64,000 nucleotides of DNA from the human T2T-CHM13v2.0 reference genome, Homo sapiens. The DNA lies in contig CP086569.2 of the NCBI GenBank assembly GCA_009914755.4, forward strand, positions 50,688,001 through 50,752,000, written 5' to 3'. Shown one piece after another: positions 1-64,000 of this stretch (position 1 is the stretch's first letter; every line of letters begins with the position of its first letter). The notes beneath the pieces are model-generated. The model saw nothing but the letters and a program-made list of their open reading frames with translations, ran no database searches and was not told the DNA's origin. The position numbers and the translations under genes were made by a program.

Positions 1-233
1 TGCTCACTGCAACTTCTGCCTCACGGGTCCAAGCGATTGTCGTCCCTCAGCCTCCCAGGTAGCTGGGACTACACCACACTGGGACTACACCAGCTGCCAC
101 CATGCCTAGCTAATTTTTTGGATTTTTAGTAGTGACAGCCTTTCACTGTATTGGCCAGGATGGTCTTGATCTCTTCACCTTGTGATCCCCTTGCCTTGGC
201 CTCCAAATTTGCTGGGATTACAGGCCTGAGCCA
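1..233 (-). mobile_element. Alu SINE fragment (antisense; 5' part cut by window start)
   Basis: ggccaggatggtcttgatctc...cctccaaatttgctgggattacaggcctgagcca is the reverse complement of the Alu left monomer (GGCTCA..CCTGTAATCCCAGC..TTGGGAGGC). Confidence 0.9.
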
Positions 234-2358
234 AGATCCATATTTTTTAAATGAAAAAAAATTTCAAAGGTACTCTGCTTGGTACAATAATCAAATGTAT
301 AAACTGAGGAATAAAACATAACCATGAAACCTACTTATAACTGCATATGGAAAATACAGAGGATAATTTTTTAAATAACATATTTTGAAAGCCTTAACTA
401 GTAATTTGAAGAGTTGGCATTTGAAAGGCCAGTATGAATATACCTTCAAAGCAGCAACACAGGTTCCCCATGAGAAAAAGCAAACACAGGGGAAATAAAA
501 ACACAAAGGTTCAATCTCTTCTGACCTTTGAAAGACACAGCACAGACAGTGGTCCTTAGGACGAAGAGCAGGAGACCCCTAATTCCGTCACCATGGCGAT
601 AGGGCATAAACATTGCTGGGTGAGGGCACAATCCACATTGTGAGGTCCAACTGCTGCCAGGAAGACAGGAGTGCTTTTACATAGACCGAAAGGTCATTGA
701 AGGCTCAGAGTTTTGTTTCAAGAACTGAATCCCAAGCCCACACGTTATTAGGCTGCGCTTCTTAAAACAAGTTATGAGATGGGAAAAAGGGCACCCACAA
801 ACATACGTATACATTATGTATATAATAATATACAGTATCATATATATAATATATATAACCTATGTATAATATTGTTTTACATCCTGCATCTTATGTTATA
901 TATATTGTATAAAATATAATAATTGATAATATATAAGTTTTATAATTATACAATATGACATATAGTATATATTATAATTTATGACATATATAATATATGT
1001 TATATATAATATATAGAATATATTATACGGTTAATATACGTATTAAATATAAATTATACATTATATATATTATATATAATATATCTGTTATATATAATAC
1101 CCATTATGCATAATATATATATTATGTCTATGTTATATATAGTATAAAACAACATATAATAATATATAATTGTATATAAAATGCGACATATAATATATAT
1201 TATATTTTATAACATATGTACTATATATTATATATTATATATAATACGTTGTATGTATAATACCTATATTAAATATATATTATATGACTATGTTATTAAT
1301 TACATGTCACATGTGTTATATATTATATATTTTACATAGAATATACCGGTTACATACAATATATACTATGTTACCTATAATGTATAATTTATTACATGTA
1401 AAATAAAGAATGCAATATATTATGTATAATTTATAATATACAATATGTGGAATGTGATATATATAACATATAATATATGATATATGATATACAGTATATG
1501 ATATATAACATACAACATATGATTCCTAATATATATGGTATACAATATATATTTTATGATATGTATTCTATATGTTTTATGTTCTGTTATATATAACTAT
1601 TTGAAATTATATATAACTGTATAATATTTTATGTAAATATGTAATATAATATATATAACTATATAATATATTATATATAACTATATATTATGTTATATAT
1701 ACTTTTATAACATAATTTACATAAAATATCATAATATAATATATATTATATTATTTCATATTACATAATATATATTACATATCACCCAATATAACTAACA
1801 TACATAATATTATAATATAGATTATATTGTGTTTTATTAAATATCATATATATCATGTATCATATATTCTATAATATATATTACACATTATATAATATGT
1901 ATATTGTCTATTATGTGATATATATAACTCTATATATAATTATATTTTTATACATATAACTAGATAAACATGTAATTCTACATATTTTCATTTATAATAT
2001 GTAGAATTATATAATCATATATAATTATTTATATTCTATAAAAATTTTATCATTATATAAATTATAATATATAAAAATTGTAATATGTACTACAAATATA
2101 TATATTATATATCATATATGATATAGTACCTTTGTTATATATCATAATACATATAAATGTGTATTATGTTATCTATAATTATATAATTTCATATATAAGA
2201 TGTATAATATGTATCATATATTATATATGTTATGTAATATATATAGTATATATAAGATGACACAGGATAAATATTATATACTATGACATATAAAATATAT
2301 GAGGTTATATGTTACATATAAGGCATAGCACATAACATGTAATATATATCATATATAA
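1..2358. repeat. Unit 0 (partial; window opens 59 bp inside the Alu), subfamily A
   Basis: Subfamily A markers are present: aaatgaaaaaaaatttc, ctgcatatggaaaatac, and cttatgttatatatattg in the TA block. Confidence 0.9.
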
Positions 2359-2650
2359 TTTTTTTTTAGACAGAATCTTGTCCTGTTGCACAGGGTGGGG
2401 TACAATGGCGCCATCTTTGCTCACTGCAACTTCTGCCTCACGGGTCCAAGCGATTGTCCTCCCTCAGCCTCCCAGGTAGCTGGGACTACACCACACTGGG
2501 ACTACACCAGCTGCCACCATGCCTAGCTAATTTTTTGGATTTTTAGTAGTGACAGCCTTTCACTGTATTGGCCAGGATAGTCTTGATCTCTTCACCTTGT
2601 GATCCCCTTGCCTTGGCCTCCAAATTTGCTGGGATTACAGGCCTGAGCCA
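2359..2650 (-). mobile_element. Alu SINE, antisense, ~292 bp incl. 9-nt A-tail (seen as poly-T), 5'-truncated ~12 bp, CpG-decayed
   Basis: tttttttttagacagaatcttgtcc..gctcactgcaac..cctcagcctcccaggtagctgggactaca..ctagctaattttttggatttttagtag..ggccaggatggtcttgatctc..gctgggattacaggcctgagcca aligns to the reverse complement of the Alu consensus. Internal 15-bp duplication gggactacaccacactgggactacacca. Confidence 0.92.
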
Positions 2651-60697: not shown

Positions 60698-62825
60698 AGA
60701 TCCATATTTTTTAAAAGAAAAAAAATTTCAAAGGTACTCTGCTTGGTACAATAATCAAATGTATAAACTGAGGAATAAAACATAACCATGAAACCTACTT
60801 ATAACTGTATACGGAAAATACAGAGGATAATTTTTTAAATAACATATTTTGAAAGCCTTAACTAGTAATTTGAAGAGTTGGCATTTGAAAGGCCAGTATG
60901 AATATACCTTCAAAGCAGCAACACAGGTTCCCCATGAGAAAAAGCAAATTCAGGGAAAATAAAACCACAAAGGTTCAATCTCTTCTGACCTTTGAAAGAC
61001 ACAGCACAGACAGTGGTCCTTAGGACGAAGAGCAGGAGACCCCTAATTCCGTCACCATGGTGATAGGGCATAAACATTGCTGGGTGAGGGCACAATCCAC
61101 ATTGTGAGGTCCAACTGCTGCCAGGAAGACAGGAGTGCTTTTACATAGACCGAAAGGTCATTGAAGGCTCAGAGTTTTGTTTCAAGAACTGAATCCCAAG
61201 CCCACACGTTATTAGGCTGCGCTTCTTAAAACAAGTTATGAGATGGGAAAAAGGGCACCCACAAACATATGTATACATTATGTATATAATAATATACAGT
61301 ATCATATATAAAATATGTATAACCTATGTATAATATTGTTATACATCCTGCATCTTATATTATATATATTGTATAAAATATAATAATTGATAATATATAA
61401 GTTTTATATTTATACAATATGACATATAGTATATATTATAATTTATGACATATATAATATATGTTATATATCATATATAGAATGTATTATACGGTTAATA
61501 TACGTATTAAATATAAATTATACATTATATATATTATATATAATATATCTGTTATATATAATACCCATTATGCATAATATATATGTTATGTCTATGTTAT
61601 ATATAGTATAAAACAACATATAATAATATATAATTGTATATATAAAATGCGACATATAATATATATTATATTTTGTGATATATGTAATATATATTATATA
61701 TTATATATAATACCTTGTATGTATAATACCTATATTAAATATATATTATATGACTATGTTATTAATTACATGTCACATATGTTATATATTATATATTTTA
61801 CATAGAATATACCGGTTACATACAATATATACTGTTACCTATAATGTATAATTGATTACATGTAAAATAAAGAATGCAATATATTGTGTACAATTTATAA
61901 TATACAATATGTAGAATGTGATATATATAACATATAATGTATGATATAAGATATACAGTATATGATATATAACATACAATATATGATACCTAATATATAT
62001 GGTATACAATATATATTTTATGATATGTATTCTATATGTTTTATATTCTGTTATATATAACTATTTGAAATTATATATAACTGTATAATATTTTATGTAA
62101 ATATGTAATATAATATATATAACCATATAATATATTATATATAACTATATATTATGTTATATATACTTTTATAACATAATTTACATAAAATATCATAATA
62201 TAATATATATTATATTATTTCATATTACATAATATATATTACATATCACCCAATATAATTAACATACATAATATTATAATGTAGATTATATTATGTTATA
62301 TTAAATATCATATATATCATGTATCATATATTCTATAATATATATTATACATTATATAATATGTATGTTGTCTATTATGTGATATATATAACTATATATA
62401 TATAATTATATTATTATACATATAACTAGATAAACATGTAATTCGACATATTTTCATTTATAATATATAGAATTATATAATCATATATAATTATTTATAT
62501 TCTATAAAAAATTATATCATTATATAAATTATAATATATAAAAATTATAACATGTACTACAAATATATATATTATATATCATATATGATATAGCACCTTT
62601 GTTATATATCATAATACATACAAATGTGTATTATGTTATCTATAATTTTAAAATTTCATATATAAGATGTATAATATGTATTATATATTATATATGTTAT
62701 GTAATATATATAGTATATATAAGATGACACAGGATAAATATTATATACTATGACATATAAAATATATGAGGTTATATGTTACGTATAAGGCATAGCACAT
62801 AACACGTAATATATATCATATATAA
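60406..62825. repeat. Unit 25, subfamily B0, 2420 bp (copy of unit 10)
   Basis: Shares gtcgtgttg, ttttgagattttatt and ataccttgtatg with unit 10. Confidence 0.9.
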
Positions 62826-63117
62826 TTTTTTTTTAGACAGAGTCTTGTCCTGTTGCACAGGGTGGAGTACAATGACGCCATCTTTGCTCACTGCAACATC
62901 TGCCTCACGGGTCCAAGCGATTGTCCTCCCTCAGCCTCCCAGGTAGCTGGGACTACACCACACTGGGACTACACCAGCTGCCACCATACCTAGCTAATTT
63001 TTTGGGATTTTATTAGTGACAGCGTTTCACTGTATTTGCCAGGATGGTCTTGATCTCTTCACCTTGTGATCCCCTTGCCTTGGCCTCCAAATTTGCTGGG
63101 ATTACAGGCCTGAGCCA
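62826..63117 (-). mobile_element. Alu SINE copy (antisense), B-type
   Basis: Positional copy of the 26535 Alu (atgacgcc, ccatacctagc, tgtatttgcc). Confidence 0.9.
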
Positions 63118-64000
63118 AGATCCATATTTTTTAAAAGAAAAAAAATTTCAAAGGTACTCTGCTTGGTACAATAATCAAATGTATAAACTGAGGAATAAAA
63201 CATAACCATGAAACCTACTTATAACTGTATACGGAAAATACAGAGGATAATTTTTTAAATAACATATTTTGAAAGCCTTAACTAGTAATTTGAAGAGTTG
63301 GCATTTGAAAGGCCAGTTTGAATATACCTTCAAAGCATCAACACAGGTTCCCCATGAGAAAAAGCAAACTCAGGGAAAATAAAACCACAAAGGTTCAATC
63401 TCTTCTGACCTTTGAAAGACACAGCACAGACAGTGGTCCTTAGGACGAAGAGCAGGAGACCCCTAATTCCGTCACCATGGCGATAGGGCATAAACATTGC
63501 TGGGTGAGGGCACAATCCACATTGTGAGGTCCAACTGCTGCCAGGAAGACAGGAGTGCTTTTACATAGACCGAAAGGTCATTGAAGGCTCAGAGTTTTGT
63601 TTCAAGAACTGAATCCCAAGCCCACACGTTATTAGGCTGCGCTTCTTAAAACAAGTTATGAGATGGGAAAAAGGGCACCCACAAACATTCGTATACATTA
63701 TTTATATAATAATATACAGTATCATATATATAATATATATAACCTATGTATAATATTGTTTTACATCCTGCATCTTATAATATATATATTGTATAAAATA
63801 TAATAATTGATAATATATAAGTTTTATATTTATACAATATGACATATAGTATATATTATAATTTATGACATATATAATATATGTTATATATCATATATAG
63901 AATATATTATACGGTTAATATACGTATTAAATATAAATTATACATTGTATATATTATATATTATATATCTGTTATATATAATACCCATTATGCATAATAT
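62826..64000. repeat. Unit 26 (partial, cut by window end), subfamily B1 (copy of unit 11)
   Basis: Shares ccagtttgaata and caaagcatcaacac with unit 11. Confidence 0.88.

What the first reader, a model, noticed from the sequence alone, without database searches (positions are those of the whole stretch)
1..64000. Two unit subfamilies arranged in domains A - transitional - B - mosaic - A - transitional - B
Subfamily A (units 0-8 and 22-23) carries agacagaatcttgtcc, ggggtacaatggcgcc, caacttctgcc, ggatttttagtagtgacagcc, aaatgaaaaaaaatttc, ctgcatatggaaaatac, and cttatgttatatatattg in the TA block. Subfamily B (units 10-20 and 25-26) carries agacagagtcttgtcc, ggagtacaatgacgcc, caacatctgcc, gggattttattagtgacagcg, aaaagaaaaaaaatttc, ctgtatacggaaaatac and cttataatatatatattg. 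Units 9 and 24 combine states of both. So units cluster by similarity rather than being mixed at random. That pattern fits local homogenisation by unequal crossing-over and gene conversion within the array.
Basis: seen in the sequence. Interest (0 to 1): 0.55.

Follow-up and report, generated by a model that had tools for sequence, protein, structure and literature searches.

The report
Human DYZ2 satellite with internal duplication
The window is an ordinary stretch of the known human 2.4-kb satellite DYZ2/HSat1B. Its two repeat subtypes do sit in blocks, but the second "A - transitional - B" run is a 99.8% identical copy of the first, made by a duplication about 15 units long, which is behaviour already described for this satellite.

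Summary
The window holds 26 full units and one partial unit of about 2,420 bp. Units 0-7 (A) and 10-20 (B) differ at 53 consensus positions. Clustering by position beats all 100,000 permutations.

The interpretation needs three corrections.

1. Window 52,023-63,999 copies 15,732-27,708 at a lag of exactly 36,291 bp, with 24 differences in about 12 kb and no indel. Unit 21 is the crossover junction (B-type left, unit-6-identical right). The repeated domain order therefore comes from one duplication of about 15 units, not from two independent homogenisations.

2. The "transitional" units 8 and 9 are not A×B hybrids. Unit 9 would need 17 switches. It keeps the state of diverged outgroup units at 27 of 29 B-derived sites and 17 of 20 A-derived sites. 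Both units look like relics at a domain boundary.

3. A is essentially the common type of this satellite: external fragments are 99-100% identical to A units. B is a locally derived variant. It was absent from 76 external fragments and contains a two-unit sub-periodicity.

The sequence matches published descriptions of DYZ2/HSat1B: 2,420-bp unit, 5'-truncated Alu about 20% diverged from AluY, ACATACG junction, 24.6% GC. Unequal exchange, one- and two-unit indels and gene conversion are already documented for this satellite. The finding is correct but ordinary.

The parts
1..64000 (.). Head-to-tail array of 26 full units and 1 partial unit of the 2.42-kb composite satellite (DYZ2/HSat1B type). 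The Alu part is antisense on the + strand.
   Evidence: Unit starts and lengths are. GC is 24.6% and CpG density is 1 per 135 bp. No ORF exceeds 61 aa in a unit.
2360..2650 (-). Alu-derived part of one unit, given as an example. It is 5'-truncated by 12 nt, about 80% identical to AluY, and has a 15-bp internal insertion. The poly(A) tail reads as a T run at about 2359-2367.
   Evidence: There are sub-threshold mir-1268 (Alu-derived) Rfam hits at the same place in each unit.
2657..3223 (.). GC-richer non-Alu part of the same unit (39% GC), called the HSATI part by Hallast et al. It ends at the ACATACG junction (3218-3224).
   Evidence: The published description is quoted.
3224..4775 (.). AT-rich block of the same unit (about 1.54 kb, 14% GC). 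It carries most of the variable sites: 172 of 237.
1..19340 (.). Domain A (units 0-7), the common type of this satellite with a few local changes. Sub-clusters: u0/u1 and u3/u4 (4 differences).
   Evidence: External fragments are 99.1-100% identical to A units.
19341..21753 (.). Unit 8, a divergent relic. It has 0 of 29 B-derived states, 7 of 20 A-derived states and 17 private states. Length is 2,413 bp.
21754..24173 (.). Unit 9, a basal-type relic. It is ancestral at 27 of 29 B-derived sites and 17 of 20 A-derived sites, and has 25 private states.
24174..50792 (.). Domain B (units 10-20), a locally derived variant with 29 derived states. Unit 10 carries only 20 of the 29. Units 13, 15 and 17 differ by 1-2 sites.
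26594..43533 (.). Two-unit (4.84-kb) sub-periodicity inside B. Units 11/13/15/17 alternate with units 12/14/16 at columns 1064 and 1223.
50793..53211 (.). Unit 21, the recombinant junction unit. It is B-type up to about 51,305, shows A states from 51,687, and is identical to unit 6 from about 52,023 to its end apart from 1 difference.
51978..52167 (.). Interval that contains the left breakpoint of the recent duplication. The counterpart in unit 6 is 15,694-15,876.
   Evidence: The last u6/u21 difference is at columns 1185-1229. The first state shared only by u6 and u21 is at column 1374.
15732..27708 (.). Copy 1 of the duplicated block: right part of unit 6 through the left part of unit 11.
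   Evidence: Position-by-position comparison at a lag of 36,291 bp.
52023..63999 (.). Copy 2 of the duplicated block (right part of unit 21 through unit 26), cut off by the window end. It shows 24 differences from copy 1 in about 12 kb in the unit alignment, and no indel at a fixed lag.

Best explanation
The window is a piece of a human HSat1B (DYZ2) satellite array, most likely from Yq12. It is non-coding heterochromatin, and its internal pattern records copy-number events.

Most likely history:
1. A stretch of common-type units (A) lay next to older divergent units (8 and 9).
2. A unit resembling unit 9 gained about 29 new substitutions and was amplified locally into domain B. Part of that amplification went in steps of two units.
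3. Later, an out-of-register exchange occurred between a unit at the far edge of B and unit 6, 15 units away. This was probably unequal sister-chromatid exchange or break-induced replication. It produced the hybrid unit 21 and a tandem duplicate of the block that starts in unit 6.
4. The two copies have since diverged by about 0.2%.

Shown here: the unit types, the duplicate, the junction and the polarity of the differences. Inferred: the molecular mechanism, the chromosomal location and the full extent of copy 2 beyond the window.
For: Identity of the sequence:
- The modal unit is 2,420 bp, with an ACATACG junction, a 5'-truncated Alu about 20% from AluY, an AT-rich block, 24.6% GC and CpG at 1 per 135 bp.
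- Published values for DYZ2/HSat1B are a 2,420-bp consensus, the same three parts, an AluY 20% diverged, 24% GC and 1 CpG per 150 bp.
- A unit-specific 41-mer finds 41 short contigs in bacterial assemblies and metagenomes. The T2T-Y paper reports this kind of HSat1B contamination.

The duplicate:
- Units 7-10 match units 22-25 with 4, 3, 4 and 11 differences, against 11-43 differences within a domain.
- In an alignment-free scan the only good downstream lag for that block is 36,291 bp, with 22 mismatches in 9,673 bp. The next best lag has 2,108 mismatches.

The junction:
- Unit 21 has B states at the first 9 diagnostic sites, including the u18-u20-specific c at column 512.
- It then has A states, and shares 7 states found only in unit 6. 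It has 0 differences from unit 6 over columns 1515-2424.

Polarity:
- Of the 53 A/B differences, 29 are derived in B and 20 in A.
- Unit 9 is ancestral at nearly all of them, and unit 10 is intermediate with 20 of 29.

Mechanism (published, for Yq12):
- Sister-chromatid exchanges were seen in about 15% of Strand-seq libraries, and the duplication patterns were described as consistent with unequal exchange.
- About one de novo gain or loss of one or two whole DYZ2 units occurs per Y transmission, and 29% of new point changes look like gene conversion.
Against: - The window ends 1.1 kb into unit 26, so it is not shown that copy 2 runs for a full 15 units, or that there are only two copies.
- Y versus acrocentric short arm cannot be decided with these tools. 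No human reference genome was available, so the species is also inferred.
- Unit 21 has a middle stretch (columns 894-1229) that is A-like but not unit-6-like, plus one B state at column 1120. The junction is therefore more complex than a single clean crossover.
- The outgroup used for polarity is four fragments of about 90%-identical units, which probably represent only two loci.
- An assembly error in a satellite cannot be excluded without reads.
Confidence: 0.85

Rival explanations
1. Two A domains and two B domains each arose by gradual local homogenisation (unequal crossing-over plus gene conversion), and the units between them are A/B hybrids formed at the boundaries.
For: Difference rises steadily with distance for lags of 1-12 units. 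Neighbours are far more alike than random pairs.
Against: - The second series repeats the first unit for unit, including 17 and 25 private variants of units 8 and 9, with only 3-4 differences per unit.
- Mean difference drops sharply at lag 15 only.
- Unit 9 would need 17 switches between A and B states, and it carries only 2 of 29 B-derived states.
Confidence: 0.05
2. The array has a regular higher-order repeat of 15 units (36.3 kb) with many copies. The window simply shows the first one and a third periods.
For: The exact 36,291-bp lag runs without any indel over 12 kb. A smaller two-unit periodicity exists inside B.
Against: - The periodicity does not extend leftwards. Unit 5 versus unit 20 shows 66 differences, and the left part of unit 6 versus unit 21 shows 17 differences in 513 columns. 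The window therefore contains a definite left edge.
- The number of copies to the right cannot be seen.
- In the passages retrieved, neither Y-chromosome paper gives any period for DYZ2 blocks other than the ~2.4-2.5 kb unit.
Confidence: 0.15
3. The near-identical second block is a false duplication made by the assembler in a highly repetitive region.
For: Satellite arrays of more than 98% identity are error-prone. No reads are available here.
Against: - The two copies differ at 24 sites. Most are singletons private to one copy or the other.
- The block starts at a hybrid unit with 7 private changes of its own.
- A collapsed or duplicated read set would give identical copies.
Confidence: 0.05
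4. The array lies on an acrocentric short arm (chr13, 14, 15, 21 or 22) rather than on Yq12.
For: HSat1B is also present on the acrocentric short arms.
Against: - The modal unit length equals the Yq12 consensus length of 2,420 bp.
- Most units are more than 97% identical, as reported for the Y.
- The published statement about allelic HSat1B on chr15 and chr21 concerns alignments below 95% identity.
- None of this is decisive.
Confidence: 0.25

Closest known systems
DYZ2 / HSat1B, the 2.4-kb composite satellite of human Yq12 and the acrocentric short arms (Rhie et al. 2023; Hallast et al. 2023)
   Same: - Unit length: 2,420 bp modal.
- Three-part anatomy: AT-rich block, 5'-truncated old AluY, GC-richer part.
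- ACATACG at the junction.
- GC and CpG content.
- High identity among units.
- Divergent units at the edges of homogenised zones.
- Multi-unit duplications consistent with unequal exchange.
   Different: Nothing structural differs. Subtype B, with its 29 derived states, was not seen among 76 external fragments. It may be a local or rare variant. The chromosome of origin is undetermined.
De novo DYZ2 copy-number changes and gene-conversion-like changes seen in a four-generation pedigree (PMC12240836)
   Same: - De novo events of 2,416-4,839 bp, that is one or two whole units.
- These match the near-identical neighbouring units 3/4 and the two-unit alternation in B.
- The short 36-bp patch that separates unit 11 from unit 26 resembles a conversion tract.
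   Different: The main event here spans 15 units (36.3 kb), larger than the pedigree events. At the published Yq12 rate it is roughly 1,900-2,700 generations old, not de novo.
Higher-order repeats of alpha satellite
   Same: Multi-unit periodicity created by out-of-register exchange. Younger, more homogeneous cores sit next to older divergent units.
   Different: Only two copies are visible, with a defined left edge. The base unit is 2.4 kb rather than 171 bp. No centromere function is implied.

Membership tests
DYZ2 / HSat1B satellite | Tandem unit of about 2.4 kb (published consensus 2,420 bp) | tested here: met
   26 full units of 2,412-2,420 bp, 16 of them exactly 2,420 bp.
DYZ2 / HSat1B satellite | Composite unit: AT-rich simple-repeat block, 5'-truncated Alu and GC-richer (HSATI) part | tested here: met
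   The Alu alignment starts at consensus position 13. The other parts are a 567-bp stretch at 39% GC and a 1,543-bp block at 14% GC.
DYZ2 / HSat1B satellite | Alu part is an old AluY about 20% diverged from the consensus | tested here: met
   80.4% identity over 276 columns.
DYZ2 / HSat1B satellite | ACATACG heptamer at the junction of the HSATI part and the AT-rich block | tested here: met
   Found at offset 800 of unit 1 (window 3218-3224), at the composition boundary.
DYZ2 / HSat1B satellite | About 24% GC and about 1 CpG per 150 bp | tested here: met
   24.6% GC and 1 CpG per 135 bp.
DYZ2 / HSat1B satellite | Direct sequence match to a reference DYZ2 consensus or to T2T chrY | not testable with these tools
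   No human genome or Dfam library is available. Indirect support: A units are 99-100% identical to contaminant fragments of the kind reported to be HSat1B.
Yq12 location (male-specific) | Array flanked by or alternating with DYZ1 (HSat3) blocks on the Y | not testable with these tools
   The window contains only this one repeat, and no flank is visible.
Unequal-exchange tandem duplication | Two adjacent blocks in the same orientation, near-identical, at a lag that is a whole number of units | tested here: met
   The lag is 36,291 bp, which is 15 units. Identity is 99.8% with no indel.
Unequal-exchange tandem duplication | A hybrid junction unit whose left part matches the end of block 1 and whose right part matches the start of block 1 | tested here: met
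   Unit 21 is B-type on the left, sharing column 512 c with u18-u20. It is identical to unit 6 on the right. The middle 336 columns fit neither parent exactly.
Regular higher-order repeat | Three or more successive copies of the same multi-unit block | tested here: inconclusive
   For the 15-unit block, only 1.3 periods are visible and there is no periodicity to the left. For the two-unit block in B, about 3.5 periods (u11-u17) are marked by only two columns and by low lag-2 distances.

The most novel reading that the evidence does not exclude
Subtype B could be a previously uncatalogued, locally amplified DYZ2 lineage: 29 derived substitutions, a two-unit sub-periodicity, and descent from a basal unit type preserved as a relic at its edge. 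Together with the 15-unit duplication junction it might be specific to one Y lineage. If so, it would be a datable structural marker of Yq12 evolution.
Probability: 0.3. Interest if true: 0.25.

Novelty: already known. Interest (0 to 1): 0.15.

Why it matters
It matters little beyond bookkeeping. The window is a clean small-scale example of how this satellite evolves. It shows a common unit type, relic units at a domain edge, a locally derived and amplified variant, and a datable multi-unit duplication with its crossover junction preserved. The two Y-chromosome assembly papers and the pedigree study already describe these processes for DYZ2. The practical lesson for the scan is that repeated domain patterns in a tandem array should first be tested for multi-unit duplication. 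Independent homogenisation should be inferred only after that test.

Tried and rejected
- **Rfam:** a scan of two units gave only sub-threshold mir-1268 (Alu-derived) hits at 33.9 bits against a gathering score of 83.
- **ORFs:** none longer than 61 aa in a unit, so no coding reading was pursued.
- **Viral contigs:** scans for one A string and one B string found nothing. The A string was a poor control because its last base is a change local to this window.
- **Unit 25 cluster:** I looked for donors for its cluster of private changes (7 within columns 484-1019). I also looked for donors of the private states of units 6, 8, 9 and 21 among the external fragments. No coherent donor appeared, and most matches were to poorly aligned fragments.
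- **Unit 26 counterpart:** I could not decide whether it corresponds to unit 11 or unit 12.
  - It equals unit 12 in a 36-bp patch (columns 1059-1094), including two states private to unit 12.
  - It equals unit 11 at column 440.
  - The distinguishing right half lies beyond the window.
  - Either unit 11 or unit 26 underwent a short conversion, or copy 2 lacks one unit.
- **Units 8 and 9 as recombinants:** I considered this and rejected it on the switch count and the polarity.
- **GC wave:** the apparent 12-kb wave in GC content is aliasing between the 2-kb step and the 2.42-kb unit. It is not a feature.
- **Literature:** a search for described DYZ2 subfamilies or higher-order structure found nothing beyond the two Y-assembly papers.
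Full report
**What the window is**

The whole 64 kb is one head-to-tail tandem array. 62885. There are 26 full units of 2,412-2,420 bp, 16 of them exactly 2,420 bp, and a last partial unit of 1,116 bp.

Each unit has three parts:
- an antisense Alu-derived part.
- a 567-bp stretch at 39% GC that ends in ACATACG;
- a 1,543-bp block at 14% GC.

Overall GC is 24.6% and CpG density is 1 per 135 bp. There is no ORF above 61 aa. 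The only RNA-family hits are sub-threshold mir-1268 matches inside the Alu.

**Identity with a known satellite**

These features match the published descriptions of DYZ2/HSat1B point by point.
- Hallast et al. describe a unit of about 2.4 kbp made of an AT-rich simple repeat, a 5'-truncated Alu and an HSATI part. They give a final 2,420-bp consensus obtained by adding the heptamer ACATACG at the HSATI/AT-rich junction, 24% GC and 1 CpG per 150 bp.

A 41-mer from the diverged Alu part is present in 25 of the 27 units. It finds 17 short contigs in bacterial genome assemblies from unrelated phyla and 24 metagenome stretches. Rhie et al. report exactly this kind of HSat1B contamination of microbial databases.

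I could not align the window to a human reference. Species and chromosome are therefore inferred. Yq12 is the likeliest location and an acrocentric short arm is the alternative.

**Check of the observation**

All 14 diagnostic strings are present in the stated blocks.

In a MAFFT alignment of the units (2,424 columns, 237 variable):
- units 0-7 differ from each other by 0.2-1.8%;
- units 10-20 differ by 0.0-1.3%;
- the two groups differ from each other by 2.4-3.2%.

Forty-one columns are near-fixed differences, and 53 columns differ between the two consensus sequences.

Neighbouring units differ at 30.7 sites on average. Randomly ordered units give 50.3 +/- 3.9, and none of 100,000 permutations reaches the observed value.

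**First correction: the second series is a copy of the first**

The pairwise matrix shows these matches:

| Pair | Differences |
|---|---|
| unit 7 vs 22 | 4 |
| unit 8 vs 23 | 3 |
| unit 9 vs 24 | 4 |
| unit 10 vs 25 | 11 |

Differences within a domain are 11-43 for most pairs. Mean difference by lag rises smoothly to lag 12-13 and then drops sharply at lag 15 only.

An alignment-free comparison confirms this. The 9,673-bp block of units 7-10 has 22 mismatches at a lag of 36,291 bp and at least 2,108 at every other downstream lag. At that lag, window 15,732-27,708 matches 52,023-63,999 without a single indel. In the unit alignment the two copies differ at 24 sites in about 12 kb, or 0.2% (less one terminal-gap column).

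**The junction unit**

Unit 21 is a true recombinant.
- Columns 0-512 are B-type and share a state found only in units 18-20.
- A states appear from column 894.
- From column 1230 onward it equals unit 6 except at one site. It shares seven states found only in unit 6, the first at column 1374.

The left breakpoint of the duplication therefore lies at about window 51,978-52,167, with its counterpart at 15,694-15,876.

The stretch between columns 894 and 1229 is A-like but lacks four substitutions private to unit 6. It also lacks a 7-bp deletion that unit 6 shares with units 8 and 23, and it has one B state at column 1120. The junction is therefore not a single clean crossover. Either the partner unit was already a hybrid, or conversion followed.

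To the left, the periodicity stops: unit 5 versus unit 20 shows 66 differences.

**Second correction: the transitional units are relics, not hybrids**

Units 8 and 9 differ from both consensus sequences at 31 and 34 sites, and have 17 and 25 private states.

I used four external fragments of about 90%-identical units as an outgroup to polarise the 53 A/B differences. 29 are derived in B, 20 are derived in A, and 4 are unresolved.

| Unit | B-derived states (of 29) | A-derived states (of 20) |
|---|---|---|
| 8 | 0 | 7 |
| 9 | 2 | 1 |
| 10 | 20 | 0 |
| B consensus | 29 | 0 |

Independently of the outgroup, reading unit 9 as an A×B mosaic needs 17 switches, one of them between adjacent columns 894 and 895.

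The simplest reading is that B descends from a unit like unit 9, and that units 8 and 9 are older units left at the edge of two homogenised zones. Hallast et al. describe the same layout for DYZ2 arrays.

The outgroup probably samples only two loci, so the polarity is well supported but not proven.

**Third correction: A and B are not equivalent**

- Every external fragment of high identity is closest to an A unit (99.1-100%), and none is closest to B.
- At the diagnostic columns the external fragments carry the A state almost everywhere. At 15 of the 41 columns no fragment carries the B state. The single reversal is column 1933, where A is locally derived.
- The other two B strings mark old polymorphisms that also occur elsewhere.

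A is thus essentially the common type, and B is a local or rare derived variant.

**Finer structure**

- Inside B, units 13, 15 and 17 differ by 1-2 sites. Units 11/13/15/17 alternate with 12/14/16 at columns 1064 and 1223. This indicates amplification in two-unit steps.
- Inside A, units 3 and 4 differ by 4 sites. Units 0, 1, 3 and 4 share a 2-bp deletion that unit 2 lacks.
- These step sizes match the de novo gains and losses of 2,416-4,839 bp seen about once per Y transmission.

**Mechanism and age**

The anatomy is that of out-of-register exchange between sister chromatids, or an equivalent replication-based event. It shows a tandem same-orientation duplicate at a whole number of units, with a hybrid unit at the joint.

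The molecular mechanism is inferred rather than shown. It agrees with published evidence for Yq12:
- sister-chromatid exchanges in about 15% of Strand-seq libraries, and duplication patterns consistent with unequal exchange;
- gene-conversion-like new mutations.

If the pedigree rate for Yq12 applies (3.86e-7 per bp per generation), the 0.2% divergence corresponds to about 1,900-2,700 generations. The 2.2% A/B difference corresponds to about 28,000 generations. These are rough figures that depend on the location being Yq12.

**Open points**

- Whether copy 2 continues for all 15 units, and whether there are more than two copies.
- Whether unit 26 corresponds to unit 11 with a 36-bp conversion patch, or to unit 12 with one unit lost.
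- The origin of the cluster of seven private changes in unit 25.
- The chromosome of origin.

**Verdict**

The object is a known satellite behaving as already described. Interest is low.

Noticed in passing
window 60,949-61,484 (unit 25, alignment columns 484-1019): Unit 25 has 9 private substitutions relative to its twin unit 10, and 7 of them fall within 535 bp. The other duplicated units have 3-4 scattered differences. No coherent donor was found among the units or the external fragments, so the cause is unknown. Possibilities are conversion from a unit outside the window, clustered mutation, or sequence error.
   Followed up: partly
window about 15,732 (unit 6), 20,564 (unit 8) and 56,855 (unit 23); alignment columns 1223-1229: The same 7-bp deletion (tatatat) in the AT-rich block occurs in unit 6 and in units 8/23, but not in unit 7 between them. 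It is also absent from unit 21, which is otherwise the twin of unit 6 from that point on. This could be recurrent slippage or a short conversion.
   Followed up: partly
window 27,653-27,688 (unit 11, columns 1059-1094) versus 63,944-63,979 (unit 26): Five differences within 36 bp are the only differences between unit 11 and unit 26 in 1,116 bp. In this patch unit 11 carries the states of units 13/15/17, and unit 26 carries those of unit 12. It is a candidate short gene-conversion tract.
   Followed up: partly
L001-L017 (bacterial genome assemblies, e.g. Mycobacterium, Bifidobacterium, Vibrio, Streptomyces records): Seventeen species-representative bacterial genome assemblies contain contigs of 0.3-2.5 kb that are 99-100% identical to A-type units of this satellite. 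They are almost certainly human contamination, as the T2T-Y paper reported.
   Followed up: partly
L035 (OIIZ01000083.1, 5,694 bp); also L031 and L036: In external contigs, a unit only about 90% identical to the window's units lies directly next to a unit that is 99.2-99.4% identical. Strongly diverged units are therefore interspersed with standard ones elsewhere in this satellite. I used these diverged units as the outgroup.
   Followed up: partly
window 892-1327 and the same offset in most units: Inside the AT-rich block there is an internal direct repeat of about 228-230 bp (1.9 copies, 74-77% matches), plus many short AT-rich periodicities (7, 16, 22 and 58 bp). This suggests the block itself grew by older internal duplications.
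   Followed up: no
window 46-112, 2463-2529 and 4880-4946 (- strand): Sub-threshold matches to the Alu-derived microRNA family mir-1268 (33.9 bits, gathering score 83) occur in the Alu part of each unit. They reflect Alu ancestry and are not evidence of a microRNA gene.
   Followed up: no
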